A DNA stretch of 36,384 bases from Deltaproteobacteria bacterium (GTDB lineage Bacteria; Bdellovibrionota; FAC87; UBA2466): positions 1-36,384 of the forward strand of contig JACQOU010000115.1 of NCBI GenBank assembly GCA_016207775.1. Direction: 5' to 3'. This document shows, one piece after another, positions 1-29,799 of the stretch. Below the pieces are notes generated by a model that was given only the letters and a program-made list of their open reading frames with translations, ran no database searches and was not told where the DNA came from. The first letter of the stretch is position 1. Every line of letters starts with the position of its first letter. The position numbers were made by a program, and so were the translations under genes.

Positions 1-486
1 GACGGCACTCTGATTGGAAAATATCGCAAAACGCATTTATTTGCCTGTTCGCCTGTCTACGAACACCATTGCCTGTCGCCCGGTGATAGTTATGAGATCA
101 TGGAAATCGGCGGACTGAAGTTCGGTCTTTTGATCTGCTACGATTTACGATTTCCCGAACTTGCGCGGTCCCTTGCTTTAAAAGGTGCACAGGTGCTTGT
201 GCTTGTTTCTGCTTGGCCAAGGTCAAGAATCGAGCATTGGAGAATTTTATGTGCGGCCCGGGCGATTGAGAACCAACTCTATATGGTGGCGGCAAATCGT
301 GTAGGCCAGGACGGGGAGATGGTCTTTGGCGGCTCAAGTTGCCTTGTTGATCCTTACGGAATTGTGATAGGGAGTGCTAACGATAGTGGGGAAGCTCTCT
401 TGGTCGGTGAAATAGACGAAGAAAAAATTGCCTCAGTGCGTAAAAAGATGCCAGTCTTTGAGCACAGACGTGAAGACATCTACTGA
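1..486 (+). CDS. Carbon-nitrogen hydrolase (nitrilase/omega-amidase superfamily), 5'-truncated by the window edge
   Basis: Frame 1 is open from base 1 (DGTLIGKYRKTHLF...), so the ORF-track start at 100 is internal. It carries the nitrilase-superfamily catalytic Lys context (RKTHLF), the catalytic Cys context (LLICYDLRFPE) and AANRVG. Stop is TGA at 484-486. Confidence 0.85.
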   Translation, partial: DGTLIGKYRKTHLFACSPVYEHHCLSPGDSYEIMEIGGLKFGLLICYDLRFPELARSLALKGAQVLVLVSAWPRSRIEHWRILCAARAIENQLYMVAANRVGQDGEMVFGGSSCLVDPYGIVIGSANDSGEALLVGEIDEEKIASVRKKMPVFEHRREDIY

Positions 487-521
487 GTATCCGTAGCGAC
501 ACGTTTTTCTAAAAAAGTTAT

Positions 522-547
522 TAAGCTTGATGTGGATTTGCCGATGA
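522..547 (+). promoter_or_regulatory. Candidate sigma-28 (FliA/SigD)-type promoter upstream of csrA
   Basis: TAAG (522-525), a 14-nt spacer, then GCCGATGA (540-547). The class consensus is TAAA-N15-GCCGATAA. It ends about 30 nt upstream of the csrA ATG. Match by eye only. Confidence 0.35.
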
Positions 548-575
548 AGACTATAGAGGTAAGCATCGCCTTCCT

Positions 576-806
576 ATGCTGGTACTGACCAGAAAACTTG
601 GCGAAAGTATTGCGATAGACGACGATATCAAAATTGTCGTCGTTCAGATAAAAGGTCGGCAGGTACGTTTAGGAATTGAGGCGCCGCGTGATACTAAAAT
701 CCACCGAGAAGAAGTTTATCTAGCCATCCAAGAGCAAAACAAATCCGCTGCTCAGTCCGAGCCCGATCAAGTGAAAAAAGTTGCGAAGTTACTGCGCGCA
801 AGCTAA
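576..806 (+). CDS. csrA: Carbon storage regulator CsrA (RNA-binding translational regulator)
   Basis: The 76-aa product MLVLTRKLGESIAIDDDIKIVVVQIKGRQVRLGIEAPRDTKIHREEVY carries the canonical CsrA/RsmA signature. It has a C-terminal extension of the kind seen in FliW-partnered CsrAs, and fliW is adjacent. Confidence 0.95.
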   Translation: MLVLTRKLGESIAIDDDIKIVVVQIKGRQVRLGIEAPRDTKIHREEVYLAIQEQNKSAAQSEPDQVKKVAKLLRAS

Positions 807-857
807 CATACAATCGTTACCCAGCCTTATTTATATTTACAAACCGGGAGAGTGCCT

Positions 858-1400
858 ATGATGGTTGAGACCACCCGCTTCGGCTCAATTCAGGTGGAGG
901 ACAATGATATTGTTAATTTTCCAGAAGGCATGCTCGGATTTTCCAAAATCCATCAGTATGTATTGGTTGAACGAGTGGATGATTCATTGTTTCTTTGGCT
1001 GCAGGCCCTGAAAAAACCGAGCGTGGCCTTTCCACTTCTTGAACCACAAATTTTTGAGCTCAATTATAAAGTGGAATTAATGGATGAAGACAGAAGGCTG
1101 CTCAAGCTCAATACTCTGAATTGCGCAAAAGTTTTTGCCATTATCACTATTCCGAGCGACCCAATGAAAATGACCGCGAACCTGAAGGCCCCGATTGTCG
1201 TCAATCTTAAGACCAGGCTGGCCAAACAGGTTATCTTGCACAATATCGATTACCCAATCCGGAAAGGAATCTTTTCCGACTTACAGAGGCATTGTGCCGC
1301 CAAGCAGCGTACCGTGTTTCCGGACAGCGAAGCTTCTGCGTACCAAGCAATCCACATTTCAGAAGAATTTGTGGAGACCAACATCGAAGAAAACGTGTAG
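858..1400 (+). CDS. fliW: Flagellar assembly factor FliW (CsrA antagonist), with an extended C-terminal tail
   Basis: FliW-like N-terminus (TRFGSIQVEDNDIVNFPEGMLGF...), MTANLKAPIVVN and adjacency to csrA. A GGGAG Shine-Dalgarno at 846-850 favours ATG 858 over the track's GTG 852. The last ~13 codons are duplicated at 2989-3033. Confidence 0.85.
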   Translation: MMVETTRFGSIQVEDNDIVNFPEGMLGFSKIHQYVLVERVDDSLFLWLQALKKPSVAFPLLEPQIFELNYKVELMDEDRRLLKLNTLNCAKVFAIITIPSDPMKMTANLKAPIVVNLKTRLAKQVILHNIDYPIRKGIFSDLQRHCAAKQRTVFPDSEASAYQAIHISEEFVETNIEENV

Positions 1401-1404
1401 CGCT
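1359..1404 (+). repeat. Left copy of a direct repeat, covering the 3' end of fliW
   Basis: AAGAATTTGTGGAGACCAAC (1363-1382) is identical to 2987-3006. Over 1359-1404 versus 2983-3028 I count 37/46 identities at a fixed offset of 1624 nt. Confidence 0.9.
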
Positions 1405-1540
1405 AACGCGCCAAGAAATGTAGGTCCTTCGGGCCTCATCTGAAGGCGCGTGGGTAATGTTGTAGAGATTGCCCCTCCTATCCGATAGATATAACGTATT
1501 TGGATTGAAGAATACGTCAATTCAGGTTCATAATGGATCG

Positions 1541-2311
1541 ATGGATTCAGACCGCAAAAAACGAGAAGTTTTCCATTTTCTCTTCCTCGAATGGCTACTG
1601 AGGATCTCCGATCCAAAGCTCTATATCGTTAAGGGTGGGGTAAATCTCCGTTTTTTCTTCCACAGCCCACGCTATTCTGAGGATATGGATATCGATGTCC
1701 TTGGCGGGGCAGTGCATACGCTTAAGAAGAACGGCTACAAAATTTTGGAAGATGCGGCGTTTAGCCGCAGTCTGCGAATGTACGGAATTGATCGATTGCT
1801 CGTCAACGACTCTTCGAAAGCCAAACAGACCGAAACGGTACAACGCTTTCGGGTTCGCCTCGTTACTTCGGCAGGTGAAGAGCTACCCACGAAGATCGAG
1901 TTTTCGCGACGAATTAAAGAGTCTTTATCCCATTTGGTGGATCGGGTGGACCCGGAGATTGCGCGCACCTACCAGCGATTAGCTTTTCCGTGTCCTCATT
2001 ACACCGGAGAATCAGCTGTTCTGCAAAAGATAGTGGCTCTTGCGAACCGGGAGCTTACGCAAGCCCGTGATGTCTTCGACCTGCAAGTCCTTGCTGATGC
2101 CGGTTACCTGAAACATGTAAAGCCAGCGGAAGTGCTGAAGCGGTCAACACTAGTCGAAGCCGGGAAGAACCTGCACTTGCTTACCCATGAAGACTTCGCA
2201 GGTCACGTGCTTGAGTACCTGGAGGATGTCGACCGGAGTAGATACGAGGGGAAAGAGGCGTGGGATTCTATGAAAGAAACGGTTGCCGAGGTGTTGAAAA
2301 ATGGCGATTAA
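1541..2311 (+). CDS. abiEii: AbiEii/AbiGii-family nucleotidyltransferase toxin (DUF1814, type IV TA / abortive infection)
   Basis: VKGGVNLRFFFHSPRYSEDMDIDV matches the GG(T/V)xL...R(F/Y)SEDxD nucleotidyltransferase motif of the family. The track ORF starts at TTG 1469, and the first ATG is 1541, giving 256 aa, a typical size. The stop overlaps the next gene by 11 nt. Confidence 0.8.
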   Translation: MDSDRKKREVFHFLFLEWLLRISDPKLYIVKGGVNLRFFFHSPRYSEDMDIDVLGGAVHTLKKNGYKILEDAAFSRSLRMYGIDRLLVNDSSKAKQTETVQRFRVRLVTSAGEELPTKIEFSRRIKESLSHLVDRVDPEIARTYQRLAFPCPHYTGESAVLQKIVALANRELTQARDVFDLQVLADAGYLKHVKPAEVLKRSTLVEAGKNLHLLTHEDFAGHVLEYLEDVDRSRYEGKEAWDSMKETVAEVLKNGD

Positions 2312-2900
2312 GCAGGCAAGCGTGAGCGTTGTCTTTTCCACCCGCGAGTTCGCCATAACACACGGGTTATCGTTTTCGGGGGCGTCGCACCATCTCAGGA
2401 TTCTTGAGAAACATGGCGACATCATTCGCATCACCCGCGGTGTCTGGGGGCGGCCAAACCATCCGCATTTCACCGCCTTTGCCTGTGTCCCTGTGCTCCT
2501 CGGACAGGAACAAGGGTACGTTTCGTTTCTTACTGCACTCCATCGCCACGGGGCAATCTCCCAAATTTCCCCCGTGATCCAGGTTGCGACGACAGGACAC
2601 TCAAGAAAACTCGCTACTTGCATTGGTCGTTTCGAGTTTTTTCAGCTGAAACCCGAAATGATGCTCTTGGGAATCGAATGGAGCGAGAGTTACATCCCGT
2701 TCCGGATGGCCACTGCCGAGAAAGCACTTATCGATACTCTCTACTTAGGGACACGCAAGGGGCGCCGATTTGCTTCGCTTCCTGAATTACACCGAACCTT
2801 TGAGCAGCGAAAACTCTCAGGGTTGTTACGCGAGCAACGGCTCCCTGGCCCGATTGTGAAAGCCATCCAGGAACGGTTGGCTCAGATCGTCGGTAGTTGA
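2301..2900 (+). CDS. abiEi: AbiEi-family antitoxin / transcriptional regulator (winged-helix N-terminal domain)
   Basis: FSTREFAITHGLSFSGASHHLRILEKHGDIIRITRGVWG fits the AbiEi N-terminal wHTH pattern (F-S/T-x-x-E/D ... L-x-x-L-x-x-x-G-x-I-x-R-I-x-RGVY/W). It is translationally coupled to the AbiEii gene. Confidence 0.7.
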   Translation: MAIKQASVSVVFSTREFAITHGLSFSGASHHLRILEKHGDIIRITRGVWGRPNHPHFTAFACVPVLLGQEQGYVSFLTALHRHGAISQISPVIQVATTGHSRKLATCIGRFEFFQLKPEMMLLGIEWSESYIPFRMATAEKALIDTLYLGTRKGRRFASLPELHRTFEQRKLSGLLREQRLPGPIVKAIQERLAQIVGS

Positions 2901-2982
2901 TCCCAACCCGATTACAGCTCAACAAGTTTCATCACCTTTTCAACTAAACGGACGCTCCAAAAGACCGTTCATACAGCCTCTC

Positions 2983-3033
2983 TCACAAGAATTTGTGGAG
3001 ACCAACCTGGAAGACAATGGCCTGCGCTTATAG
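2983..3033 (+). repeat. Right copy of the direct repeat: a displaced relic of the fliW 3' end
   Basis: Reading gaa(2989) onward gives EFVETNLEDNGLRL followed by TAG at 3031-3033. This parallels the FliW C-terminus EFVETNIEENV*. The relic overlaps the stop codon (3028-3030) of the convergent oxidoreductase gene. Confidence 0.85.
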
Positions 3034-4038
3034 ACTAGTGGCAGAGCAATGTTCAGTGTTGAGAATAGTCTTTCTAGCTTGATCCGCAATTCTTAAGGCA
3101 TCCAGACCATCTTCCGGAGGAACAGGCATAGTAAGGTGGCCGGTTATTGCCGCGATAAAAGCAGTGAGTTCCTGCTGCAGTGGTTCCTTTTGCTGAATAC
3201 CAATCTGCAATTTATCTGGTTGTGCAAAGGATTTCAGATAGGAGTCAAAAAAGAATTCTTTGGGTATTTCAGCCTGAGTGAGAAGAGGGTTTTGGCGAAC
3301 GAGCGTTGCCTGTTGCGTGATAAGGTTTAAGAAGCAGTAGCCTTTCGATCCGATAATTTGGATTTCCCTAACTTTTACTGGGGTTAGCCAATTAACGTGT
3401 GCATCCACGAGCGTTTTCCCTACTTTTAGCAACAGGGTTGCACAATGGATTTCTTGGTCACCATAGCCAACGCATGAGATAAGCTGAGGCACTTTACCGA
3501 GAAGCGTTTTAAAAAGGTCGAGGTCATGGACAGCCAAATCGACCAATACATCGCCAGCTCGTTTCTGGTCACTGGGATTACCCCCGACTCGTTTAGAGCT
3601 GATTGTTAAGATTTCCCCTAACTCACCCGTTCGAATTAAATGATGGGCCGTGACAACGGCCGGATTGAAACGTTCAACATGGCCTACCATAAAAGGTGTT
3701 TGAGTTTCGCAGGCGAGTCGACACAGGTGCAGAGCTTCCTTGACCGTTGCTGCAATGGGTTTTTCCACTAAAACAGGTATCTTGTTTTTCAGTGCCAGCG
3801 ATGCAAGCTCAAAATGGGTGGAGGTGGACGCTGCAATGACAATCGCCTCGGGCCTCACTTCCTGAAGAGCGGCATCCAAACTCGCAAAAGCAGGGCATTT
3901 TCCTCGGTCTCCAAACTCTTTGGCCAGTTGCGGATCGCTATCAACCACGGCGGCGATTCGGCAGCCGCTCATCGCAGAAAGTATGCGAAAGTGATTACCG
4001 CCCATCTTGCCTAAACCAACTAACACAATTTGAATCAT
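3028..4038 (-). CDS. Gfo/Idh/MocA-family NAD(P)-dependent oxidoreductase (sugar/UDP-sugar dehydrogenase-like)
   Basis: N-terminal Rossmann motif MIQIVLVGLGKMGGNH plus the EKP motif (PVLVEKPIA) typical of the family. A GAGG Shine-Dalgarno lies ~8 nt upstream of ATG 4038. Confidence 0.85.
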   Translation of the reverse strand: MIQIVLVGLGKMGGNHFRILSAMSGCRIAAVVDSDPQLAKEFGDRGKCPAFASLDAALQEVRPEAIVIAASTSTHFELASLALKNKIPVLVEKPIAATVKEALHLCRLACETQTPFMVGHVERFNPAVVTAHHLIRTGELGEILTISSKRVGGNPSDQKRAGDVLVDLAVHDLDLFKTLLGKVPQLISCVGYGDQEIHCATLLLKVGKTLVDAHVNWLTPVKVREIQIIGSKGYCFLNLITQQATLVRQNPLLTQAEIPKEFFFDSYLKSFAQPDKLQIGIQQKEPLQQELTAFIAAITGHLTMPVPPEDGLDALRIADQARKTILNTEHCSATSL

Positions 4039-4190
4039 GCTTTGCCTCGTGCCATGGCAGGGCGTAGTTACAGGGCGTTAAGTAATCTAACTCTTTTTCC
4101 GAAAAGGATAGAGAAGACTCACTTACATTACCCGTTGCTTAAAACCATTTTAGCATACCGTTACAAGTCAAGCTTACCAAGAGGGGATAG

Positions 4191-4748
4191 ATGCAAAACA
4201 GAAGACTGAAGGTTGCTTACCGAAGTAATGAAAACGCTTACTTTGTTCACCCCACCGCCATTATTGATGAAGACGTTACAATCGGAGAGGGAGCAAAGAT
4301 CTGGGCTTTTTCGCATGTAATGTCGGGAGCAAAAATTGGGAAAAACTGCATTATTGGTGAAAAGGTGCATATTGGTCCGAATGTTACCTTAGGTGAACAT
4401 TGTAAAGTTCAAAACGGAGTGAACCTGTACGCCGGAGTGACCGCGGAGGATTTCGTCTTTTTTGGTCCAAATTGTCAAACAACCAATGAAAAACATATCG
4501 GTCTCACGGACTTGGAAGGCAATCCGTATTCTGATTGGACTGCTGGAAGAACAATTTTCAGGCAAGGTTGTTCAATTGGTGCGAATGCGGTGGTTGTCTG
4601 TGGTAGTGAATCAACTCCAACAGAAATTGGGTCTTATGCCATCGTGGGTGCTGGGGCAGTTGTTGTGAGCAGCGTACCCGGTTGTGCAATCGTCGTTGGC
4701 AATCCAGCCCGTTTACTCCGATACAGGTCTCAAAAAATCACAAAATGA
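4191..4748 (+). CDS. Left-handed beta-helix (hexapeptide-repeat) sugar N-acyl/acetyltransferase
   Basis: Repeated [LIV]-G-x-x-x-x hexapeptides (VTIGEGAKIWAFSHVMSGAKIGKNCIIGEKVHIGPNVTLGEHCKVQNGV). An AGAGGGGA Shine-Dalgarno precedes ATG 4191. Similar to WbpD/FdtC/WxcM-type enzymes by pattern only. Confidence 0.8.
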   Translation: MQNRRLKVAYRSNENAYFVHPTAIIDEDVTIGEGAKIWAFSHVMSGAKIGKNCIIGEKVHIGPNVTLGEHCKVQNGVNLYAGVTAEDFVFFGPNCQTTNEKHIGLTDLEGNPYSDWTAGRTIFRQGCSIGANAVVVCGSESTPTEIGSYAIVGAGAVVVSSVPGCAIVVGNPARLLRYRSQKITK

Positions 4749-10214: not shown

Positions 10215-13200
10215 TTGATGATTTTAGGAAAGCTTGGTGGGGATACTGTGTACCGTGGTTTGATAATCTATCTGTGCGTGTGGCTTGCTTTTCCCCCACA
10301 AGTCTGGGTGATGGCGGCACAGCCCTCCAATAATAATCCTGCCCCAAGACAAGCGATGAATTCAGAGGCTGCTGATTCTGCGGCAAGCGAAGAATCGGAG
10401 GATGAAGAGATTGATGAAGATGGATTAGACCCGAAATCTCCGCAAACCCCAATATGGCTAAGCACGGATGGTAGGTGGTACAGCTCTACTAAAGGAAAAA
10501 ACGCAGAAGAGTATCGAAAACTATACGAACAAAATAACGGCAATCCTGGGCCTTTGCAGTTGCAAGACTTTGGCCTCATCCGCTTTGAGGGCACACATAC
10601 TGCTGGAAAAGGCTGGTCGGGAAAGTGGGTGGACGTCGTTACAGGTAAAGAAGCTTTCATCCCACCTTCTTTGCCCAAGCCTCAGCCCAAGCCCAAGCCT
10701 GCGACGATTGATCCGGATGCTATTCTTAAAACTCCCCAGTACATCGAAAAGCGAAAAGAGGATCGGGCAAAAACTCGAAAGCAGTTGGAACTGGCATCGT
10801 GGCGAGTAAGCTACTTTGTTCGAAAATTAATCCCAAAAATTTTAGATCTTTATACAGTCGAAAACTATACCACCATTTTGCCTTATTCCCGCTGCCCGAG
10901 TCCTGTTGCTGTTCCCGAGGACCTGAGTGAAATGCAAGCCGAGCGTTTACTGAAGTTGCTCAGTGACTCTTTGACCAGTGCTCAGACTCAGCTAGCCCAC
11001 TTTTTTGAGACTTATAAAGCTGAAATTGGCCAGGTCCCTTACGTTCTGCTGGATGAGGAAGAACACGCACAACTGGATGTCTTGGAGGGGCCTAACGGAA
11101 CCCGCTGCCAACCACTCATTTGGGGGCAAAGATTTGCGCAACTAGATGAGCCGGAGAAAACACAGACCTTCAATCGAACAAATCCACTCATGCTCACTTT
11201 CTTTTATGCCCTTAGCGGAAATCCCGACGGTCCGATTACTGACATTGAAATAGGAAAGTACGTTCATTGGGTTCAAACCTTAAGAAACTTTTATAGATTG
11301 ATTGCGAAGTATCTGTGGGTCAAAAAGAGTACGGCTCAAATCAGCTCCCCCCCTGATTTCGAAGTTCAACCCGAAGCAGGAGAAAAGCTTGCCCATCAAA
11401 TGAGTCCTCAAACAACCGCTGGAAAAATCTTTGCCGGCCAGGAGCTCAATCAAGAAGAGGGACGCTTTGATCGGTGTGCGGGCCGAAAAACCTTTTGCTT
11501 TTTCGATCCCAAAAGACAAAAGCGGATGGATCAGCTTGAGGAAGTCGTGCTTACCCTTCAAATTCCGAGACCGAAGGAAGAAGGAGCTCATAACCATGGG
11601 CTTCGTTTGGCTGCTGAAATAGACTTTGTCACCATTCCCTTGGTCACTGAACTTTTTATCATTAATAAATTCCTTCCTCCAGAGAAGCAGCTTTTCCCAC
11701 CGGATGGAAGACAGGGACCCACCGTTTCAGACAAGGCACTGGAGCTTTATCGAACCTTTATGCGAGCAGAGAAGCGCGAATGGTGGGCTCAGGTTTTTGC
11801 ACAAGCGGTTTTAGCTGTTGTCCAAAGATGGCAGCAGACAGGTAACGAGCCCACTCCTGTAAGTCCCGAGTATTTTCAGGCGGCTCAAACGCTGGCTCTG
11901 AGCACACTCTCGGCCCTGCTTGGCGAGCCCCAAGCGCTTGCTGATTTGCTGATAGATGCCGCTGATAGCAAGAGCAAGACTCCGCTCGATGACCTGTCAT
12001 TGCGTCACAAACTTTTAAAAGTTCGACTGCAAATGCAACAGCTCCCTTTCTCCAGGTGGGTTACCGAGGAAAGTGGTGCGAGCGGCCAAACAAATTTCTC
12101 TTCGGTGCGGATTGAACAATTGCCTTTGTGGGCGGCGCTTGTCGTGGATGGTCTTAAAAATGTCAGTGGTTCAGAAAATATCAGACGTGTGCTTGAACAG
12201 CTGCTTTTGGATGAGGAGTTCGATACTCATTCAAAGGCACTGCTGGCTTACATTGTTTCTTTTTTTGGTGAGGAAAATCTCCCCTATAAACAGCTTATCG
12301 AGGTGTGGAATCGGAAGTTAAAAAAGCGCTGGGAGCAAGTGATCAATTCCCACAAGACAGAACTGAATAAAGCGGCTGCGTCCATCACGGATCAAATTTG
12401 CGCTCATCACCCCGCTCTGTGTGACCAGGACGAATTGGACAAGCATTTTGATTCAGGACAGCAGGCACAGCAGCTCACCTATGCGTATGCGGAAAAAGCT
12501 TCTTCGGTTGCGCGCGATGCCTGGCGAGCCGACCACGCACAGAGGCATATGCAGGGGCTTGTGAATTGGGAAGACCACTGGTTGTGGAGTTTCTTCCCGG
12601 ATAATGGAATTTTCTCGTATGGGCCGGGGTCCTGGAACGTTCACCATGCGTACACGAAAGCTTATGAAAGTGAACGAGCTCGGTCGTTAGACAAAGGCAG
12701 TCCAAAGCAGGTGCATGGTGTGATGCCAGCCGTCAATCCGTGGTTTTTAATCGACGATGGCGAGGGGCATGGCTATGGCTACAGTTTTGATGTGCCTGAT
12801 GCCAGCACTAAGCCCGGTTATCACGAAATGAAGGGAGCGATAGCGGCTATTGCCGATAGAAACGTCGAGCGACTGGCCAGTGAAATGAAACTGTGGTTCC
12901 GAGAAAAAGTGAAGGACACTGCTGAGGTGACTGACGAAGATCTGAAGCGCTATTTTCCCGATATTCCCAGTTTCAAAGTGCTTGCCTTGATGGTTATTCG
13001 ACGGTTCCATGCTACTTTGGAAGCGACCGAACAGTCAGGCCGCTCTGAAGTGGCAGCGGACTTTGAGAAGGCTTTTAAGCCGCTTCATGAATGGCTGGAA
13101 AATAGAACGACGGCCGGCCGCCAGTACGCATTTGCTGCCGAGAGTTTCGCCAAACGTTTGTACGACCAATACCTTTGGTCCCCCCTTGAAAAGCACCATG

Positions 13201-16200
13201 TGGAAAATTCCCAAGCATCTAAAAAAGTGGTGGAGGAGAGTTTGTCCACCCTGCTGCAGTACGAGGTTTTTTTGGATACCTCGCTTCCGGTTGATTTCTT
13301 AATTGCACGCTATGGGCTGGCTAGGCAAACTGAAGAATTTGCAGGATCGATTAGGACCCTTGGTGCAGACGTCGTCAGAGCAAACTTTCTTGATGCCAAG
13401 ACAGGGATGGAGGAGTCCAAACGGTGTGATTTGGAAGAATGGGTATCCAAGGCTCGGGCGTCATTAGAAGATTCGAAAATCCGTGCGCTTTACCAATGGC
13501 GTTTTTCAACCCTTACTGAGCGAACAGTCGAGAATCTGCTCTCTACGTACTCAAAAGATAGTCCCCCGCCTTTTGACGGCGAGAAAAAGCCGGCTTCCAA
13601 GAAGCCTGCGCCGAAAACTGCGTCAGGCAATGTGCCGGCAAAACCGCAGGAGCAATCACCAAAGGCAGCAAACGGTGTTTCCTCGCAGGCTGATGCGTCT
13701 GCGGCTGCTTCAGTTCCACCTGGGCGCAATCCGTTTGAGCTTGAAATAGACAATTTGCTCGAAGTGTGGATAGGCGCTCCGTGGGTTGGGGAGGATAAAG
13801 AGGCACGCGCAAAATCGCGTACTGCACTTATTGGATGGCTTCGGCAAGTGTTTGGATCCTATCAGTCTGAAAAAGCCAAGGTTTCACCTGCCGAATATGT
13901 TTTTTACCTGCGTTCGCAAATTGCCAGCAATGCACCGGAGAAGTTTGGTATTTGGAATGTCGCAATCAGCGCTAAGTTTCAGGCGATTGAAGCAGCGTTA
14001 AGAAGCAAGGATCCCAAGGCGCCTGAGCAACTGGCCAAATTAATGGGAACAATCTTCCGGGAATTTGAGCTTTTGCAGGGCGATAAAATTCTTCGCGATC
14101 GAATAGCGGATACGTTGTTTGTGCGTGCTTTGCCTCAACTAATACTTCCCAGTTTTACCGTATTTTCCACTGAACTTGGCCGAAAAATGGCAGCGGTTAA
14201 AAGGGCAAAGGAAGACCCGATAAAAGTTGCTGAGGCAGCGGAAAAGCAGTTGGCGGCACATGAAGGAGCTCTCACATCGGTAACAGACCCGCAAGCTCGC
14301 AAGGAACTGCAAACACGCATTGCGCATTTCAGAACCATGCGCAGTCTCGCACGTGCACAGCAAAAGGAATGGGTGGTGCTGAAACGCATGTTGGAAAACA
14401 CCCCTGTGCAAGCCGCTCGGGAATCGATAGTGGCGTTGTCGAAAGATAAGAAAGACTACCGCGCGGCTTTTGAAAACTATTTAAAAGATCAGTTCTGGGA
14501 TACCCCACTCGATGCAACGGGCAGTGCCTTTGAAGCCGCAATGACTCCTCGTCAAATCCTGGACGATCTCAATGAACTCGGTCAGTACGTACGGGGCTAC
14601 TTGCCTGTGGACGGGGAAATTGCAAAGCAGTTTTTACATGAACTTGGGGCTTACTGCGAAAGTGGTGAAAGTCCGGTTGCTGCAGCTGCATTCCAAAAGA
14701 GTTTTGAGTCAGCAATTAATAAAGATGAACTGCCAACTGTACTTCGTTCACCTATGCCGAGTGGTCCACTGTCCAAGTTGGAAAAGCCGAAGAATCAGCC
14801 AGAGACTGAGCCAGAGACTGAGTCAGGGGATGAATCAGCGACTGAATCAGCGAAACAAGGCGCGCAGCAGTCAAGCGTTCCTCGGCCACAATATTCGGAG
14901 GATGATTCGAAACGGTTCGAGCGCATCGATGCTTTTATCAAAAAGCATAAGGTGGGAAGTGCGAAGGATTTTTGTGCGGTTCTGAAAAAGGAGTCGGTAG
15001 CCGTTCTTTCGCGTATCGAAAAAGAAATGAAAGAACAAGGCCACGTGGGTCAGTCCGCAAAAGATTACTGGGAGCTTGTGTGCATTGCTTCGGATGTTTT
15101 TTTTAGAGCCAATCGCAAATTTGCTCCGCTGGTTGATTCCAAATCAAAGGTACACTGGTTTAGTCATGCTCCCATCGCCCATTTGGGGGGAGGCAAGGAA
15201 GTCTTCCAAGGCATTAAGGGATTCAAAACGCAAGAAACGGTTTTGGCGGCCCTCGCATCCGTTGTGACAAAACCTGAGCTTACCCATGAAAAACTCAAAT
15301 TTCTTGTCAGCTGGTCGTATGGCGCTTCCGAGTATATCCTTCCCAAAGAGCCCGCCCAGTGGACAGCGTTACTGGGACAGGCAAACAAACTTCAGTTTTT
15401 CCCCCAAAAAGCAAACCCAGAGGTGATCGCGGCTTTGACGAAACAAGGACTGGTTGGAATCAGTCTTAAAATTAATGATCCCGACGTAGAAGATAAATTC
15501 ATGGCTGCCTTCCAACCGTTGGTTGCTTCCAAGGTGCTCGATGCCGAGAAAGCGGAAGATTTTCGTGCGTGGTTGGTTGCTCAAACGCCAAATATCGATG
15601 CAGATTTGCCGAAAAGCGCCGACCTTCCTACTCGTTTGAAAGGCCGCACGCTTCCAAAGGAAGAAGTTGCCAAAATCACCGAGCAGTATGTTCAAGACCG
15701 CCTGCAATGGCTCAATGGGTTGACGCGTGAACAAAGACTCGGTCTGTTTGTGAGCCTGGACCGGTATTTCATCTCCAGATTTTTCATGAATGTCCCCCAA
15801 GGTTCCATTGAGCTAGTGGATGAAGGGCCGTTGCGTGCGCGTTTTGCTTCGTACGATGAATGGCTGTTGGCGATGAAGCTTCGCCTTGAACTCTACGATG
15901 CGATGAAACAATCGCTTGGGATAATGCCTGATGCGATGAAACAATCACTTGGGATAATGCCTGATGCGATGAAACAATCGCTTGGGATCATGCCTTTAGA
16001 ATCGCTCGGTATTCATAATCTATCGTCGGAACTTTTTGAACTCATGGTTCCGTACACGCCTTACCGGTACCAGGGAGGACAGTTGTGGTTACCGACGGTG
16101 GGGCAGGCACGTCCCTCGATTGACAGGTCTCGAAAAGAATTTATGAGCGCTCCACTGCTGCAAAAAAGGCGTGTGATCGATCGCATTGCCCGCCTTTTCA

Positions 16201-19200
16201 AAGCGGAAGTCGAAGTGGGAGTGCAGCCTTTTAAAGAGATTTGGAATGCGCCCAGTGCAGATATGGAAATGGGTCAGCCCCTCATTTTGGGATGGCCACA
16301 AGATAAAGCGCTTGCCATCTACACCCGATATTTTGCGCCCAAAAACGCTGATTCCCAGGGTGTTTCAATCGAAGAGTGGATCTCGTACTGCTCAGAACGA
16401 AAAAAAGAAGGGCTTCGTTGTGGAGCGGTGCCGTCCAACGAATTTAAGCCAGGGTGGGGGATGGGTGAAAAAACCGACCAGGCTGCACTTTTCAATATTT
16501 GGTTTGAAGCGCTTGCCAACTCTCCATGGACGCATTCCATCTTTGCCGCAAATCAGCTTAAAAAACCGAGCTCCATTGCTTCACCGCATCTGTGGGAAGT
16601 TTTCGACAGCTTGGACCAATTCAAAAAATCAAAAGACTACGGTCAGCTGATTGGGCTGCTGCGTACGATGGACGCCAATGCGGGGCTTACGATTACACCC
16701 GAAACCTGGCAGCGGCTGATGCTTTCCTTAAGCCATGATCGGCTGCACCATGCGAAAGAACCGCAACTTGAAGTAGGCGGGAAGCTTTCCGACGAGCATT
16801 TTGCATTTTTTATGCAAAAACTCGTCGATGGCATTGGCATTAATGTGAAAGATTTCCACGGTTATTTAGAAACCTTGCACGGTCGCGACCGGCCAGAGGA
16901 TTGGCTCAACATGGCGCAATTCAGGTGGCACGCTCTTGTGGGGATCCCCCAGTGGATGTTCTTACAAACGAGAGTCAGTGCGCCGTACTGTGTTTCAACG
17001 TCATCCTGGGAGTCCGACTACAATGAAAGGCCGGTTCCGATTGTGAGCCAGGAGGAATTTAGCAAATTTCGTCCGTCGTCTTTGAGTTTAGAGCAGTACA
17101 TCGAGAGGGTTTTGGATCCGTCTCTGAACGAGCGCAACCGGGTACTGACCGAGGATACCGAGGGTGTTCCCCTGTACTACAAATTGATGGCGATAGAAAA
17201 TCGGATGGCAAGTTTAGAGGATTGGGCTGCCGGTGTACCGGATCGGAGGGATACTTTTGCGAAGTTTGCCCACCGGTGGTCTGAATATGATTTTGTCGGA
17301 GTCGACACGTCGACTAAACAATTCGAATTATTGAAGCAGCAGATCAGGCAAAAATTGAGAGCCACGCAGATCGAGCTTCCAGACGAAAAGCTCATTAACG
17401 CTATTAAAAACTGGGAGAGGCTTGCTCGAATCAGAAATCTCATTAACGAGGCGAATTTCAGGCTGCCTGTTGAAAACTTCCGCGCAACGCAATGGGGACG
17501 CGGTCAAGAAATCCCCCTCTGGGAAAAATCCGTTGTGGAACAAATGCAAGCGATGGTGTGGGAGTGGTGCCGGCAAAACGGGATTCCCAAAGAGAGCTGG
17601 CCCAATATTTCGGCCTTGGTTGCCAAGCACACCGAGGGCGTTGGAAATCGTGGAATTCGGCGCAATATTTTATGTGCCATCTGTCACTACGAAGTGATGA
17701 GACTTCATCAACAGCGTGTTTGGGCAATTTCCCCTGGCTCCGACGACCCAAACAAACCCAATCCCTTGGCTCAGGCTCACCGGGCAACCGGCGAGGCAAT
17801 TACGCTGGCACAGCAGGCAACCGTCATTAATGATACCCAGCAAAATCAAGTGGCGTTTAACATTATCCAACATCTCATCAAGCTGAACCAGGTACGCGGG
17901 AAGCTATCGACGATAAGTACCGACGCCCAGTTGTTTGAAGCGCGCGACCTGATTTGGCAAGCTCACCTTGCCGTGATGGATAACATTCTTAAGGAGCTTC
18001 GGAAGTGGAGTCCCGAAGGTGCCAACGATAGAACATTTGGCTTGCTTGAACGAATGGTCAATGAACAAAAACAAAGGGAGGATTTCTGGAAGAAAGCCTA
18101 CACCTATTCGAATTACTTTTTGTTCTTTGCTCTTGCCGCCACCCTTTTTGGTCAGTCATTACTCCTTTTGGAGAAAATTGCCTCGCTTGCACCGACGATC
18201 ACCCGCTTTGCGCCTTCTGCTTACGCAAATCTGATTGGGGCCACGTTCGTGTACGCCCAGTACCATCAGCACGGGATGCGACAGCAAGCAATGGCGGAGA
18301 ATGAAGAATTGCACGAAGTGTTTGCAACGATCTTTAAAGGCGATACTCCACTGATTACGCAAGAGAGCGGATTTTTACTGGAGATGGACAGACGGCAACT
18401 GCTTGCAGAAGGAAGAAGCCGATGGACGTGGGGTTTTAATGCACTGGCCATGCTTTCATTCGCCGGTTTGACAGTCCGAGGGATGAAGGCATTAGGGGGA
18501 TTTTCGGCAAAATCGCTGCTTCCTCGGTTGGTCAAGTGGCAGACGCACCGTCAGTGGAAATGGACTCGGGGGGGTAAAGCCCTCGGGTTAAACGTAAAGG
18601 ATCGAGCGTTTGCGGTTTCCAGGGACAACCTTTCTGCAGCGATTGGGGCGGATGCGGGAGTCATCGATTCCGCAGGTACCCGAACGGTTGGAAGGTTGGA
18701 AAGCACTTTCCAAGGACGGCTTGGCGAAAGATTAGGGCCAGCGATCGACTCGGGATTTGCCATGCCTCCGACGCTTCGGGTTGGGGCTCGGGTGGATGCG
18801 GAACTCAAATCAACAAGAGTGCTTTTGGGGAAAAGAGTCGATGGAGTCGGAGCTGCGGAATCTGCTTCAGGAACTTTACAAGAGCGGCGTTGGTTCGTTG
18901 ATATTCCAAGACGCTTGTGGCTTTGGGCGAAGGGGAAACACCGAAAAACGGTCACAGAGCTAAGTAGCAGGGAGAACTTCCTGTACGGGGTGGCTCAAAA
19001 GCTTGAAGGTCACAATCAACAACTCAAACCGTTTGTCGAGCAAACAGAAAGTCTTCTCAAAACTGAATTGGGTTTATCGGGCCGCAACTTGGATCGTGTA
19101 CTGGCGAGGATTGATCGGTTTATTGCTGAGAAATTAAGACTGGGTGTGAGTACGGTTTCCGAGGCAGAGATTGAAAAATTCCTTGTCGACGAGTTCAAAC

Positions 19201-25276: not shown

Positions 25277-25471
25277 ATCCCCGTCCCATGTGTTGGGCGC
25301 CAGATCCAAAAGATATGCAATGTCCCGCGGGAAAGTGCTGGTGGAGCGGTCAGTTTTTCTGCACCGTTAAGGTCTATTACCCCTTCACCACGGACTTTTT
25401 TCACCCTCAGTGAAAAATGCTCGCTATTATTTTTGACTGTGGTAGAAATTACTAATAAGAGCCCACTATTT

Positions 25472-26596
25472 ATGAACTTCACAAGACGATATCTAACCGA
25501 CCAAGTTATCGCCGATTTAAGCCGAAAAATGGTCTTCTTGGGTGGGCCCCGTCAAGTTGGTAAGACAACCTTGTCGAAACAGATTGCGCCCCTTGAAGAC
25601 TATGATTATCTCAACTGGGATGCAGACGATGATAGAGACAGGATTCTTCGAAAGGAGTTTTCGAGCAAGTCTCTTTGGATTTTCGACGAATTGCATAAGT
25701 ACCGGTTATGGAGGCGTTATCTCAAGGGATTGTATGACAAGAGGTCTTCCGGACAGAAGATTCTCGTAACCGGAAGCGCCCGACTTGACTACTATCGATT
25801 TGGCGGAGACTCCCTCCAGGGACGGTACCACTACCTGCGACTGCATCCACTTTCGGTGGCAGAATTAAACAGCGGTGAATCCGCTGATGTAGCAGCGGAT
25901 CTGATGAAGCTTGGCGGATTTCCTGAACCTTTTTTCTCCGGATCAGAAACAGAGCTCAAGCGATGGACAATCGAAAATCGTACGCGCCTTGTGCGTCAGG
26001 ATTTGATCGATCTTGAGAAAGTAAGTGATGTGGGGCGACTTGAGTTGCTGATGTTACGTCTCCCTGAATTGGTAGGGTCACCGCTCTCAGTGAACAGCTT
26101 GCGTGAGAACCTAGAAGTATCGCACAAGACCCTCTCCCACTGGCTCGATATACTTGAGAGACTCTATGCGATATTTCGTATAGCACCTTTCGGCGCTGAT
26201 CGTATCAGAGCAGTAAAAAAAGCGCGCAAGCATTACCATATGAATTGGACAGTAGTAAAAGCCGAGGGACCCCGCTTTGAAAATCTTGTGGCAAGTCATC
26301 TTCTCAAATGGGTGCACTATCAAGAAGACTGTTTTGGAAAAGAGTGGGAGCTCCGTTACTTTCGCGACGTCGACCTGCGCGAAGTTGATTTCGTCATCAC
26401 TGAAGAAAACAAACCCATTCTAATGGTCGAAGCCAAATTGGAGGACAGTCCCGTTACCGAGGGTCTTAAGTATCTTAAGACTCGATTTCGAAATGCTGAC
26501 GCATATCAGATTAGCCTCAAGGGCAATAAAGATTATGTGACAGCCGACGGAATTCGCGTCTGTCCCGCCACGGCTTTTCTTCGGACATTGGTATGA
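25472..26596 (+). CDS. AAA-family ATPase with C-terminal DUF4143-like domain
   Basis: Walker A is GGPRQVGKTT and a Walker B-like segment is LWIFDELH. The length and layout are typical of the 'ATP-binding protein, DUF4143' family. The first ATG (25472) is preferred to the track's TTG at 25433. Confidence 0.75.
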   Translation: MNFTRRYLTDQVIADLSRKMVFLGGPRQVGKTTLSKQIAPLEDYDYLNWDADDDRDRILRKEFSSKSLWIFDELHKYRLWRRYLKGLYDKRSSGQKILVTGSARLDYYRFGGDSLQGRYHYLRLHPLSVAELNSGESADVAADLMKLGGFPEPFFSGSETELKRWTIENRTRLVRQDLIDLEKVSDVGRLELLMLRLPELVGSPLSVNSLRENLEVSHKTLSHWLDILERLYAIFRIAPFGADRIRAVKKARKHYHMNWTVVKAEGPRFENLVASHLLKWVHYQEDCFGKEWELRYFRDVDLREVDFVITEENKPILMVEAKLEDSPVTEGLKYLKTRFRNADAYQISLKGNKDYVTADGIRVCPATAFLRTLV

Positions 26597-29138: not shown

Positions 29139-29180
29139 TTTCAAAATCACTCGATAAGCTCTCCATTACCGTTGAAACAC

Positions 29181-29210
29181 CATACCGTAATATGGTATGC
29201 TGTATGGTAT
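29181..29210 (+). promoter_or_regulatory. Candidate VapB operator: an inverted repeat plus a direct repeat abutting the vapB start codon
   Basis: CATACC (29181-29186), a 7-nt spacer, then GGTATG (29194-29199). TATGGTAT occurs twice, at 29191-29198 and 29203-29210, with a 12-nt period. The second copy ends immediately 5' of ATG 29211. Confidence 0.35.
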
Positions 29211-29426
29211 ATGAGAGCCAGCAAGAAATATACAGTTGAGCTAGAAGAGGCACTAGTCAAATCAGCCGTCAGGTCGACTGGAAAGAGTTTTACAGAGACT
29301 GTCCGCCAAGGATTGAAGATCCTTGCTTCCACAGAAGCATATCGGGAGCTATCGAAGATGAGGGGAACTGTTGATTTGCAGCTTGATATTAGAGAGATAA
29401 GAAAGAACAAGCGTGATCAGCGCTGA
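29211..29426 (+). CDS. vapB: VapB-family type II antitoxin
   Basis: MRASKKYTVELEEALVKSAVRSTGKSFTETVRQGLKIL...MRGTVDLQLDIREIR fits the VapB_antitoxin pattern (MRTTxDxDDxLxxxAxxxTG..TKxxxVxxAL..L ... LRGxxxW). Its stop overlaps the PIN gene start. ATG 29211 is preferred to the track's TTG at 29172, which lies in the operator-like repeats. Confidence 0.75.
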   Translation: MRASKKYTVELEEALVKSAVRSTGKSFTETVRQGLKILASTEAYRELSKMRGTVDLQLDIREIRKNKRDQR

Positions 29427-29799
29427 TACAAGCGTCTTTGTCGATTTTTTTCGTGGTGTTAACAACACAGCCATAGATTTGTTGCAGCAGTCTCTTGAAG
29501 GCAAGCAGCTACAGATGAATCCGTTTGTGCTAAGCGAATTACTCAGCTCACCAAAGCTGCCAACGAAGACAGAGAAATACCTTTTGGCCTTGCCACGCAT
29601 GGAGATCGATTCAAGCTTTTTTGAGCGTGCGGGGATTCTTAGGCGACGGATTTATGAAAAGGGAAAAGGAGTAGCTATTGCCGATATCTATATTGCCCAA
29701 GCATGTATCGACTCACGAATCCCCCTTCTTACGGTGGATCAAGATCTTCTCATGATATCCGAGTATAGTGATTTGGACGTTGTTCAAATTCAGGGTTAA
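29413..29799 (+). CDS. vapC: PIN-domain ribonuclease toxin VapC
   Basis: Acidic PIN residues are in the expected places: ISADTSVFVDFF (Asp ~5), LSELLS (Glu ~42), IADIYIAQ (Asp ~91) and LLTVDQD (Asp ~109). GTG 29413 overlaps the vapB stop by 14 nt. Confidence 0.8.
   Translation: MISADTSVFVDFFRGVNNTAIDLLQQSLEGKQLQMNPFVLSELLSSPKLPTKTEKYLLALPRMEIDSSFFERAGILRRRIYEKGKGVAIADIYIAQACIDSRIPLLTVDQDLLMISEYSDLDVVQIQG

What the first reader, a model, noticed from the sequence alone, without database searches (positions are those of the whole stretch)
1359..3033. AbiE toxin-antitoxin cassette appears inserted into the 3' end of fliW, leaving a displaced copy of the fliW tail
The last codons of fliW (1363-1400, ...EFVETNIEENV*) recur 1,624 nt downstream (2987-3033) in the same orientation. 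There is a 20-nt perfect core (AAGAATTTGTGGAGACCAAC) and 37/46 identity over 1359-1404 versus 2983-3028. The distal copy still reads in frame as EFVETNLEDNGLRL*. A chance 20-mer repeat in 36 kb is very unlikely, with an expectation on the order of 1e-3 or less. The only content between the copies is abiEii-abiEi. This is the classic footprint of an element that integrates into a gene's 3' end and supplies a replacement terminus, as in attL/attR-like duplication. Here the cargo is just a ~1.6-kb TA/abortive-infection module with no integrase in the window. In the inferred ancestral state the fliW tail would have overlapped the stop of the convergent oxidoreductase gene at 3028-3033.
Basis: partly seen in the sequence, partly recalled or inferred. 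Interest (0 to 1): 0.7.

Follow-up and report, generated by a model that had tools for sequence, protein, structure and literature searches.

The report
AbiE cassette displacing the fliW tail
A 1.6-kb two-gene AbiE toxin-antitoxin (phage-defence) cassette lies between the flagellar gene fliW and its neighbour and is bracketed by a 48-base duplicate of the fliW end; this is a real scar of its insertion, but a familiar kind of scar, and nothing shows a dedicated mobility machinery.

Summary
Bases 1359-1404 recur at 2983-3028 (37/46 identical, 20-nt perfect core, spacing 1624). About 6e-4 such repeats are expected by chance, and none appeared in 100 shuffles. The distal copy reads in frame as SQEFVETNLEDNGLRL* and its stop overlaps the last codon of the convergent oxidoreductase gene. 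Similarity starts sharply at 1359/2983. It is 23/24 up to the end of the core, then 14/22 (Fisher p=0.009). That pattern points to two diverged fliW ends joined by recombination, not to a decaying in-place duplication. Between the copies lie a 46-nt hairpin, a promoter/operator, abiEii (toxin first), abiEi and an 82-nt spacer. No integrase was found in the window. In 24 loci from relatives, fliW ends 3-8 nt (186 nt in two) from a convergent gene, with no cassette and no tail repeat. Related cassettes (61-79% identity) sit in four unrelated contexts without flanking repeats or integrases. No strain-level relative exists in any collection, so no empty site could be found. Best reading: C-terminal displacement of the fliW tip, by a single crossover or homology-anchored recombination with DNA from a related strain. 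A decayed site-specific island is the main rival. Interest is modest.

The parts
576..806 (+). csrA
   Evidence: Pfam CsrA, 2.4e-26
858..1400 (+). fliW, 180 aa, intact. The Pfam FliW domain covers residues 20-136. The C-terminal tip after HISEE is hypervariable among homologues.
   Evidence: Pfam FliW, 4.5e-36; 100% match to P0001; tails of 120 homologues
1359..1406 (+). Proximal copy of the repeat. It encodes the current fliW tip SEEFVETNIEENV* and includes 6 nt beyond the stop.
1363..1382 (+). 20-nt perfect core, the most likely crossover segment
1406..1451 (+). 46-nt imperfect hairpin directly after the fliW stop, with no T tract. It may be the native 3' structure or terminator of the incoming fliW end (inference).
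   Evidence: fold of 1395-1485: -32.6 kcal/mol, z = -2.7; unique in the window
1480..1540 (+). Conserved 5' region of the cassette: promoter-like TTGAAG (1505-1510), 18-nt spacer, CATAAT (1529-1534), and an inverted repeat ATTGA 1504-1508 / TCAAT 1517-1521 that is the likely AbiEi operator
   Evidence: alignment of five cassettes; promoter scan; the operator role is an inference from Dy et al. 2014
1541..2311 (+). abiEii, a DUF1814 nucleotidyltransferase toxin of 256 aa with the family's conserved residues present
   Evidence: Pfam PF08843, 5.2e-15; PADLOC AbiEii, 3e-12; invariant columns of 30 homologues
2301..2900 (+). abiEi-like antitoxin/regulator of 199 aa; overlaps abiEii by 11 nt and lies downstream of the toxin gene
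   Evidence: PADLOC AbiEi, 2.4e-17; NCBIfam TAA_AbiEi, 1.8e-11, below cut-off; Pfam AbiEi_4, 24.3 bits against a cut-off of 25
2901..2982 (+). 82-nt spacer with no similarity to other cassettes or to fliW; no significant structure
2983..3033 (+). Distal, orphaned fliW tail. It reads SQEFVETNLEDNGLRL* in frame but has no start codon upstream. Its TAG overlaps the last sense codon of the oxidoreductase gene.
3028..4038 (-). GFO/IDH/MocA oxidoreductase (UDP-GlcNAc 3-dehydrogenase-like), the first gene of a sugar-modification block
   Evidence: best homologue only 52% identical

Best explanation
The AbiE cassette was inserted between fliW and the convergent oxidoreductase gene by recombination with incoming DNA that carried its own, diverged copy of the last ~48 nt of fliW. 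This is a C-terminal displacement. The most likely route has three steps. A fragment from a closely related strain held the fliW end, its hairpin, the abiEii-abiEi operon and about 80 nt beyond it. That fragment was taken up and circularised. It then recombined by a single (Campbell-type) crossover within the 20-24 nt that are identical in the two fliW ends. As a result fliW now ends with the incoming tip (IEENV*), and the former tip (LEDNGLRL*) sits 1624 nt downstream as an untranslated orphan that abuts the oxidoreductase stop. The cargo is a self-contained operon with its own promoter: AbiEii is a nucleotidyltransferase toxin, and AbiEi is its antitoxin and probable autorepressor, acting in abortive infection and/or addiction. 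Shown here: the repeat, its geometry, its mosaic identity profile, the gene content, and the absence of the cassette in relatives. Inferred: the source of the DNA, the circular intermediate, and which tip is ancestral. I put the general claim (insertion with displacement of a fliW tail) at about 0.85. The confidence given below is for the homology-driven route specifically.
For: The repeat is real and not due to chance. Identity is 23/24 up to the end of the core and 14/22 after it (Fisher p=0.009), with a sharp left edge and random-level identity outside. That is the profile of two diverged alleles, not of a decaying duplicate. The tip differences look like coding divergence: I/L, E/D and a synonymous AAC/AAT. 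Both tips share EFVETN, which none of 120 FliW homologues has, so the incoming end came from a near relative's fliW. A stable hairpin follows the proximal stop, as expected if a native gene end came in with the cassette. There is no integrase or transposase in the element or the window, no terminal inverted repeats, and no flanking repeats or recombinases at four other copies of the cassette family. In 24 fliW loci of relatives the convergent downstream gene ends 3-8 nt (186 nt in two) after fliW, with no tail repeat; removing 1624 nt here restores such a junction. Cassette GC is 0.512 against 0.479 +/- 0.021, and abiEi has the highest GC3 in the window. Experiments show that a single crossover of a recircularised fragment duplicates the homologous gene end around the insert (PMC3240628). 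Displacement of 3' ends that leaves orphans is described for rhs and T6SS loci (PMC5361080).
Against: No empty site, donor locus or circular form was found. The nearest FliW is 83% identical, and the core 20-mer has only one, unrelated, hit in metagenomes and none in viral contigs. From my own knowledge, 20-24 nt of perfect identity is near the lower limit for RecA-dependent exchange, so the event would be rare. The abrupt fall in identity exactly at the core edge would also fit a site-specific crossover point. The compositional signal is weak: 8% of equally long windows are as GC-rich. The contig is from a metagenome assembly, and an independent assembly of the reads (L017) covers only 1488-2974, so the two junctions are not independently confirmed.
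Confidence: 0.45

Rival explanations
1. This is the relic of a site-specific integrative element that targets the 3' end of fliW and carries a replacement tip (attL/attR). Either the integrase and everything except the addictive TA module were later deleted, or the mini-element is moved in trans by a recombinase encoded elsewhere.
For: The geometry is what an integrase acting in a gene's 3' end produces: a perfect core, similarity only from the core to the gene end, an intact target gene, and a sharp left edge. The identity drop exactly at the core edge fits a fixed crossover point. From my own knowledge, TA modules are expected to outlive the rest of a decaying island.
Against: No recombinase was found in the element or in 36 kb. 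The core is not found in any related sequence in metagenome or viral collections. There is no insertion at the fliW end in 24 relatives' loci. The FliW tip is hypervariable, which makes it a poor portable target. The cassette family lacks repeats or integrases at four other sites and is absent from the phage and viral collections; in plasmids there is only one 37% hit.
Confidence: 0.3
2. The orphan tail arrived with the right-hand block, not through insertion of the cassette. The sugar-modification block that starts with the oxidoreductase gene was brought in from another strain together with the last 51 nt of that strain's fliW, and it was joined illegitimately downstream of a cassette that was already in place.
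For: The downstream block is itself poorly conserved: the oxidoreductase's best homologue is 52% identical, whereas FliW reaches 83%. Relatives have SLT and ABC-transporter genes there instead. The structure is symmetrical, so the sequence alone does not say which side was incoming.
Against: The composition of the block matches the rest of the window, whereas the cassette is the atypical part. It needs the cassette to have been next to fliW beforehand, which no relative shows.
Confidence: 0.1
3. An in-place duplication of about 48 nt was generated when the cassette was captured at a staggered break, or by replication slippage, and the copies then diverged by mutation.
For: Direct repeats that flank an insert can be target duplications. 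The distal copy is under no obvious selection.
Against: Mismatches are not spread evenly (1/24 against 8/22, p=0.009). The 36% divergence in the tip would imply great age, yet no relative carries the cassette. The changes are conservative or synonymous, as between functional alleles. From my own knowledge, 48 nt is far longer than the target duplications made by known transposases, and there are no terminal inverted repeats.
Confidence: 0.07
4. Chance similarity, or a metagenome assembly chimera that loops a separate molecule into the chromosome at a shared 20-mer.
For: The contig is a MAG contig. The independent Logan contig L017 stops short of both junctions.
Against: The chance expectation is 6e-4, and no shuffle gave a match. 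The repeat is in frame and sits at a gene end. From my own knowledge, a 20-nt overlap is too short to link paths at normal assembly k-mer sizes, and a chimera does not explain the further 14/22 identity beyond the core. If a separate 1.6-kb circle with a fliW end did exist, it would itself be the mobile form.
Confidence: 0.03

Closest known systems
C-terminal displacement at rhs, cdiA and T6SS effector-immunity loci (Jackson et al. 2009, cited in PMC5361080; Kirchberger et al. 2017, PMC5361080)
   Same: Incoming DNA shares a short conserved stretch with the resident gene, brings a new 3' tip plus cargo, and pushes the old tip downstream as a start-less orphan. Identity is high in the shared stretch and low in the tips. 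No integrase is involved.
   Different: In those loci the tip is a toxin domain and the cargo is its immunity gene, orphans pile up in arrays, and the shared stretch is a long conserved core. Here the tip is a 5-8-residue non-conserved end of a flagellar chaperone, the cargo is an unrelated self-contained TA operon, there is a single orphan, and the shared stretch is only ~24 nt.
Campbell-type single crossover of a circular or recircularised DNA that carries a gene-end fragment (shown experimentally in E. coli, PMC3240628)
   Same: It produces a direct duplication of the homologous gene-end segment on both sides of the inserted DNA and leaves the gene intact.
   Different: The duplications observed experimentally were 109-950 bp. 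Here it is 48 nt, with only 20-24 nt of perfect identity, and the event is inferred rather than observed.
Integrative elements (prophages, genomic islands) that insert into the 3' end of tRNA or protein-coding genes and restore that end from attP
   Same: Imperfect direct repeats at both ends, one of which is the functional gene end; similarity confined to the part from the crossover to the gene end.
   Different: No integrase or excisionase. The element is only 1.6 kb. There is no recurrence at the same target in other genomes. The target sequence is lineage-specific and hypervariable.
AbiE type IV toxin-antitoxin / abortive infection system (Dy et al. 2014, PMC3985639)
   Same: A DUF1814 nucleotidyltransferase paired with an AbiEi-like wHTH protein in an overlapping bicistronic operon, with an inverted repeat at the promoter.
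   Different: The gene order is reversed (toxin first) in this subfamily. The partner scores below the curated Pfam and NCBIfam cut-offs. Function is untested.
dif modules of Acinetobacter plasmids (for example PMC6449649)
   Same: Small modules without a recombinase gene, often TA pairs, that are bounded by short sites and moved by a host recombinase in trans.
   Different: The sites that bound dif modules are 28-bp XerC/XerD sites with dyad symmetry. The repeat here has no dyad symmetry and is a piece of coding sequence.

Membership tests
AbiE type IV TA / Abi system | Toxin is a DUF1814 (AbiEii) nucleotidyltransferase with the conserved NTase motifs | tested here: met
   Pfam PF08843, 56.5 bits against a cut-off of 22.5; PADLOC AbiEii, 3e-12. 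The residues invariant in 30 homologues (K31 G33 ... R44 S46 D48 D50 D52 ... K163 R170 R176 D177 D180) are all present in the window protein.
AbiE type IV TA / Abi system | Partner is an AbiEi (COG5340) wHTH regulator/antitoxin | tested here: met
   19 PADLOC AbiEi models hit, best 2.4e-17. NCBIfam TAA_AbiEi, 1.8e-11, but 44 bits against a cut-off of 150. Pfam AbiEi_4, 24.3 bits against 25. This is membership at family level, not equivalog level.
AbiE type IV TA / Abi system | The regulator gene precedes the NTase gene in a bicistronic operon | tested here: not met
   abiEii 1541-2311 precedes abiEi 2301-2900 (11-nt overlap). The order is the same in L008, L009, L012 and L015. Dy et al. state that the regulator precedes the NTase.
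AbiE type IV TA / Abi system | Toxicity neutralised by the partner; GTP binding; phage resistance | not testable with these tools
   These need expression and phage assays.
Site-specific integrative element in a gene's 3' end | Direct repeats (attL/attR) at both ends, one of which forms the functional gene end | tested here: met
   1359-1406 and 2983-3030
Site-specific integrative element in a gene's 3' end | The element encodes an integrase/recombinase | tested here: not met
   Between the repeats there are only abiEii and abiEi. No recombinase family was found among the window ORFs of 120 aa or more.
Site-specific integrative element in a gene's 3' end | Empty site in related genomes | tested here: inconclusive
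   No relative above 83% FliW identity. 24 more distant loci lack any insert at the fliW end, but they have a different downstream gene.
Site-specific integrative element in a gene's 3' end | The same element and att sequence recur at the same target or on mobile DNA | tested here: not met
   The core 20-mer gave one unrelated hit in metagenomes and none in viral contigs. The cassette family sits in four other contexts without repeats. No phage or viral hit, and one 37% plasmid hit.
C-terminal displacement (rhs/cdi/T6SS type) | A short shared stretch followed by diverged tips; the old tip is orphaned downstream without a start codon | tested here: met
   23/24 then 14/22 identity. No + strand ORF of 40 aa or more ends at 3033.
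C-terminal displacement (rhs/cdi/T6SS type) | The displaced tip is a toxin domain and the cargo is its cognate immunity gene; orphans occur in arrays | tested here: not met
   The tip is a 13-16-residue FliW end outside the Pfam domain. The cargo is an independent TA operon. There is a single orphan.
Transposon / IS | Terminal inverted repeats, a short target duplication and a transposase | tested here: not met
   No inverted repeats at the ends. The repeat is 48 nt and imperfect. There is no transposase.
Xer-dependent dif module | Bounded by 28-bp XerC/XerD sites with dyad symmetry | tested here: not met
   No inverted repeat was reported within or at the repeat copies. By inspection the core contains only a direct GAAGAA repeat.

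The most novel reading that the evidence does not exclude
The 1624-nt unit is a minimal mobile element without a recombinase gene. It consists of a TA/defence operon plus a ~48-nt attachment sequence that mimics the end of fliW. It would be excised and integrated in trans by a host or helper recombinase and would repair its protein-coding target with its own tip. If so, toxin-first AbiE cassettes could be a class of free-riding mini-cassettes that target gene ends.
Probability: 0.08. Interest if true: 0.6.

Novelty: new member of a known kind. Interest (0 to 1): 0.3.

Why it matters
It is a clean, base-resolved example of how a small defence/TA operon can enter a chromosome without any mobility gene of its own: by borrowing a few dozen bases of homology at a gene end and leaving the old end behind. 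Scars like this are rarely preserved, and they help explain how two-gene defence cassettes come to be scattered among unrelated neighbourhoods. On its own it is a single event in a single metagenome-assembled contig. It changes nothing about what is known of FliW/CsrA or AbiE biology.

Tried and rejected
1. Empty site. The FliW homologue search found nothing closer than 83% and no EFVETN tail. The genome-contig scan gave only a 70% relative. The core 20-mer in metagenome contigs gave one unrelated radical-SAM gene and nothing in viral contigs. The exact csrA product is not on record.
2. Genus-level adjacency through the oxidoreductase. Its best homologue is 52% identical, so there is no orthologous neighbourhood.
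3. Population polymorphism from an independent assembly. Logan contig L017 covers only 1488-2974 and starts with a Nextera adapter, so it is uninformative.
4. A general rule that this cassette family duplicates the upstream gene's tail. This was rejected: L008, L009, L012 and L015 show nothing above shuffles.
5. fliW end as a general hotspot. This was rejected for the sampled relatives: 19 places for two FliW clusters all have the same flgL-csrA-fliW/SLT arrangement, and there is no tail repeat in 11 control loci.
6. Spacers 1401-1490 and 2901-3033 compared with other cassettes' flanks: no significant similarity.
7. Carriage on phages, plasmids or viral contigs: none, apart from one 37% hit on an 816-kb replicon.
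8. Rfam families in 400-4300: nothing meaningful. The hairpin is not a repeated element.
9. PDB sequence search for the two proteins: only marginal hits; not pursued.
10. Extension of the repeat beyond 1406/3030 by gapped alignment: not convincing.
Full report
OBSERVATION. The repeat is exactly as described. Bases 1359-1404 and 2983-3028 are direct copies, 37/46 identical and 1624 nt apart, with the perfect core AAGAATTTGTGGAGACCAAC at 1363-1382 and 2987-3006. With up to three mismatches allowed, the core occurs only at these two places, and none of 100 shuffles gives any match. The expected number of exact direct 20-mer pairs in the window is 6e-4. The proximal copy is the end of fliW (SEEFVETNIEENV*). 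The distal copy reads SQEFVETNLEDNGLRL* in the same frame, and its TAG at 3031-3033 overlaps the last sense codon of the convergent gene, whose stop is at 3028-3030. In register, identity is 23/24 over 1359-1382 and 14/22 over 1383-1404 (15/24 if extended to 1406). It is 21-23% on either side. The left edge is therefore sharp and the right part is diverged.

ANATOMY.
- Profile searches confirm a CN-hydrolase fragment (1-486), csrA (576-806), fliW (858-1400), an AbiEii nucleotidyltransferase (1541-2311), an AbiEi-like protein (2301-2900, overlapping by 11 nt) and a GFO/IDH/MocA oxidoreductase resembling UDP-GlcNAc 3-dehydrogenase (3028-4038, minus strand). Hexapeptide acetyltransferase and GT2 genes follow.
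- Between the copies there is more than the two genes. A 46-nt hairpin lies at 1406-1451 (fold of 1395-1485: -32.6 kcal/mol, z -2.7). A conserved 5' region lies at about 1480-1540, with TTGAAG-18-CATAAT and an inverted repeat over the -35 element. An 82-nt spacer (2901-2982) has no similarity to anything fetched.
- No ORF of 120 aa or more in the 36-kb window matches an integrase, recombinase or transposase family. Eight large ORFs have no Pfam match at all. There is no tRNA gene.

COMPARATIVE EVIDENCE.
- The contig is a Bdellovibrionota ("Deltaproteobacteria") MAG contig. The nearest FliW in 5.8 billion proteins is 83% identical, and none of the best 120 homologues has the EFVETN motif. The residues after HISEE[LF] are hypervariable. 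Both tails therefore belong to this narrow lineage.
- No empty site can be retrieved. The core has one unrelated hit in metagenome contigs (a radical-SAM gene) and none in viral contigs.
- At greater distance, 24 fliW loci of relatives (L001, L005-L007, L018-L036) show fliW ending 3-8 nt (186 nt in L006/L007) from the stop of a convergent gene, with no cassette. The 11 representative loci tested have no downstream copy of the tail.
- Deleting the 1624 nt here would restore such a junction: a 6-nt overlap if the distal tip is ancestral, or a 3-nt gap if the proximal one is.
- The downstream gene differs from that of the relatives, and its best homologue is only 52% identical. The right flank is therefore itself variable.

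THE CASSETTE ELSEWHERE.
- AbiEii homologues of 255-258 aa are numerous. The closest ones (79, 75, 69 and 61% identity) sit in four unrelated neighbourhoods: L015; L008, after a Usp gene; L009, after radC and 43 nt before a tRNA-Ala gene; and L012-14, after an 890-aa gene.
- In each case the toxin gene comes first and overlaps a ~200-aa partner. There is no recombinase next to the cassette at any of these sites.
- The cassettes share about 65 nt upstream of the start codon and nothing beyond the partner's stop.
- None is flanked by a copy of the upstream gene's tail. No relative is on phage or viral records, and only a 37% hit was found on one large replicon.
- The cassette is mildly GC-rich: 0.512 against 0.479 +/- 0.021, which 8% of equal-length windows reach. 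abiEi has the highest GC3 in the window.

INTERPRETATION.
- Chance is excluded. An in-place duplication that then decayed is unlikely. The mismatches are lopsided (1/24 against 8/22, p=0.009), the tip changes look like coding divergence, and such divergence would imply an age that does not fit with the cassette's absence from every relative.
- The structure is the product of a crossover between two diverged fliW ends, one resident and one on the incoming DNA. The identity profile between the two copies equals the profile between resident and incoming sequence wherever the exchange took place, so the sequence alone does not say which tip is ancestral. The 20-nt core is simply the only stretch long enough for an exchange.
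- Two mechanisms give this geometry. The first is homology-driven integration. Experiments show that a recircularised fragment carrying part of a gene end integrates by a single crossover and duplicates that part around the insert, whereas homology-facilitated illegitimate recombination usually gives insertion plus deletion (PMC3240628). The resulting pattern, a shared stretch, a new tip plus cargo and an old tip orphaned downstream, is what is called C-terminal displacement at rhs and T6SS loci (PMC5361080). The second is site-specific integration of an element whose attP mimics the fliW end, followed by loss of everything but the TA module.
- I favour the first (0.45 against 0.30) for four reasons. 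There is no recombinase. The event does not recur, and neither do flanking repeats at other copies of the cassette family. The shared tail motif is lineage-specific. The hairpin behind the proximal stop looks like a native gene end that travelled with the cassette.
- The abrupt identity step at the core edge and the very short homology count the other way.
- A third reading (0.10) is that the orphan tail came in with the right-hand sugar block.
- Assembly chimerism is very unlikely, but the junctions lack independent read support.

FUNCTION. The cassette appears intact. It has its own promoter, an inverted repeat kept by compensating changes across cassettes (a likely AbiEi operator, by analogy with PMC3985639), all family-invariant NTase residues and overlapping genes. 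By homology it should act as an AbiE-type growth-arresting toxin with a cognate antitoxin/autorepressor, serving abortive infection and/or its own retention. This is inference only. The replaced FliW tip lies outside the Pfam domain (residues 20-136) in a hypervariable region, so the swap is probably neutral for FliW.

NOVELTY AND VERDICT. The insertion-with-displaced-tail reading is supported (about 0.85). The specific claim of an integrative element with attL/attR is not established. Direct repeats of a gene end around an acquired segment, orphaned 3' ends, and TA cassettes without mobility genes are all known kinds, so this is a new member of a known kind and of modest interest (0.3). The toxin-first order of this large AbiE subfamily departs from the published regulator-first arrangement. 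That is a side observation worth a note.

Noticed in passing
window 1541-2900; L008 2063-3503; L009 2369-3740; L012 5001-6378; L015 520-1900: In this populous AbiEii subfamily (255-258 aa) the toxin gene precedes and overlaps the AbiEi-like gene at all five loci seen. The published AbiE description has the regulator preceding the NTase (PMC3985639).
   Followed up: partly
window 1480-1540 and the equivalent ~65 nt in L008, L009, L012, L015: A conserved region upstream of abiEii: TTGAAG-18-CATAAT with an inverted repeat over the -35 element (ATTGA/TCAAT; TTGCA/TGCAA in L009, which is a compensating change). It is probably the autoregulatory operator.
   Followed up: partly
window 1406-1451: A stable 46-nt hairpin immediately after the fliW stop, with no T tract. 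It is unique in the window and is not found in viral contigs.
   Followed up: partly
window 1-1400 compared with L006, L018-L036: The csrA-fliW pair here follows a CN-hydrolase gene, not flgK-flgL, and is not followed by the SLT gene that abuts fliW in the relatives. The pair therefore sits in a rearranged neighbourhood on both sides.
   Followed up: partly
L004 3908-4648: In the closest FliW relative (83%), an MNT/HEPN nucleotidyltransferase pair (another TA-like module) lies between flgL and a deoC gene, just upstream of csrA-fliW. The contig ends 34 nt after fliW.
   Followed up: no
L009 3783-3855: tRNA-Ala(cgc) begins 43 nt after the abiEi stop. The cassette there lies in a cluster of TA-like genes (DUF433, BrnA, HEPN/MNT). 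The 146-aa gene called over the tRNA is probably spurious.
   Followed up: partly
window 29172-29799: A second toxin-antitoxin-like pair: an 84-aa ORF that overlaps a PIN-domain (VapC-like) ORF.
   Followed up: no
window 10215-21905: A 3896-aa ORF with no Pfam match. It contains three tandem 33-nt repeats at 15897-15995.
   Followed up: no
window 25433-26596: An AAA_14 + DUF4143 ATPase gene. From my own knowledge, this family is often found near defence or mobile genes.
   Followed up: no
L017 1-19: The Logan contig that carries the identical cassette begins with the Nextera mosaic-end adapter AGATGTGTATAAGAGACAG. Its ends therefore reflect read ends and low coverage, not biology.
   Followed up: yes
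window 4520-4566 and 30510-30556: A 47-nt direct repeat at 70% identity, with a 15-nt core, in two unrelated genes. Probably chance.
   Followed up: no
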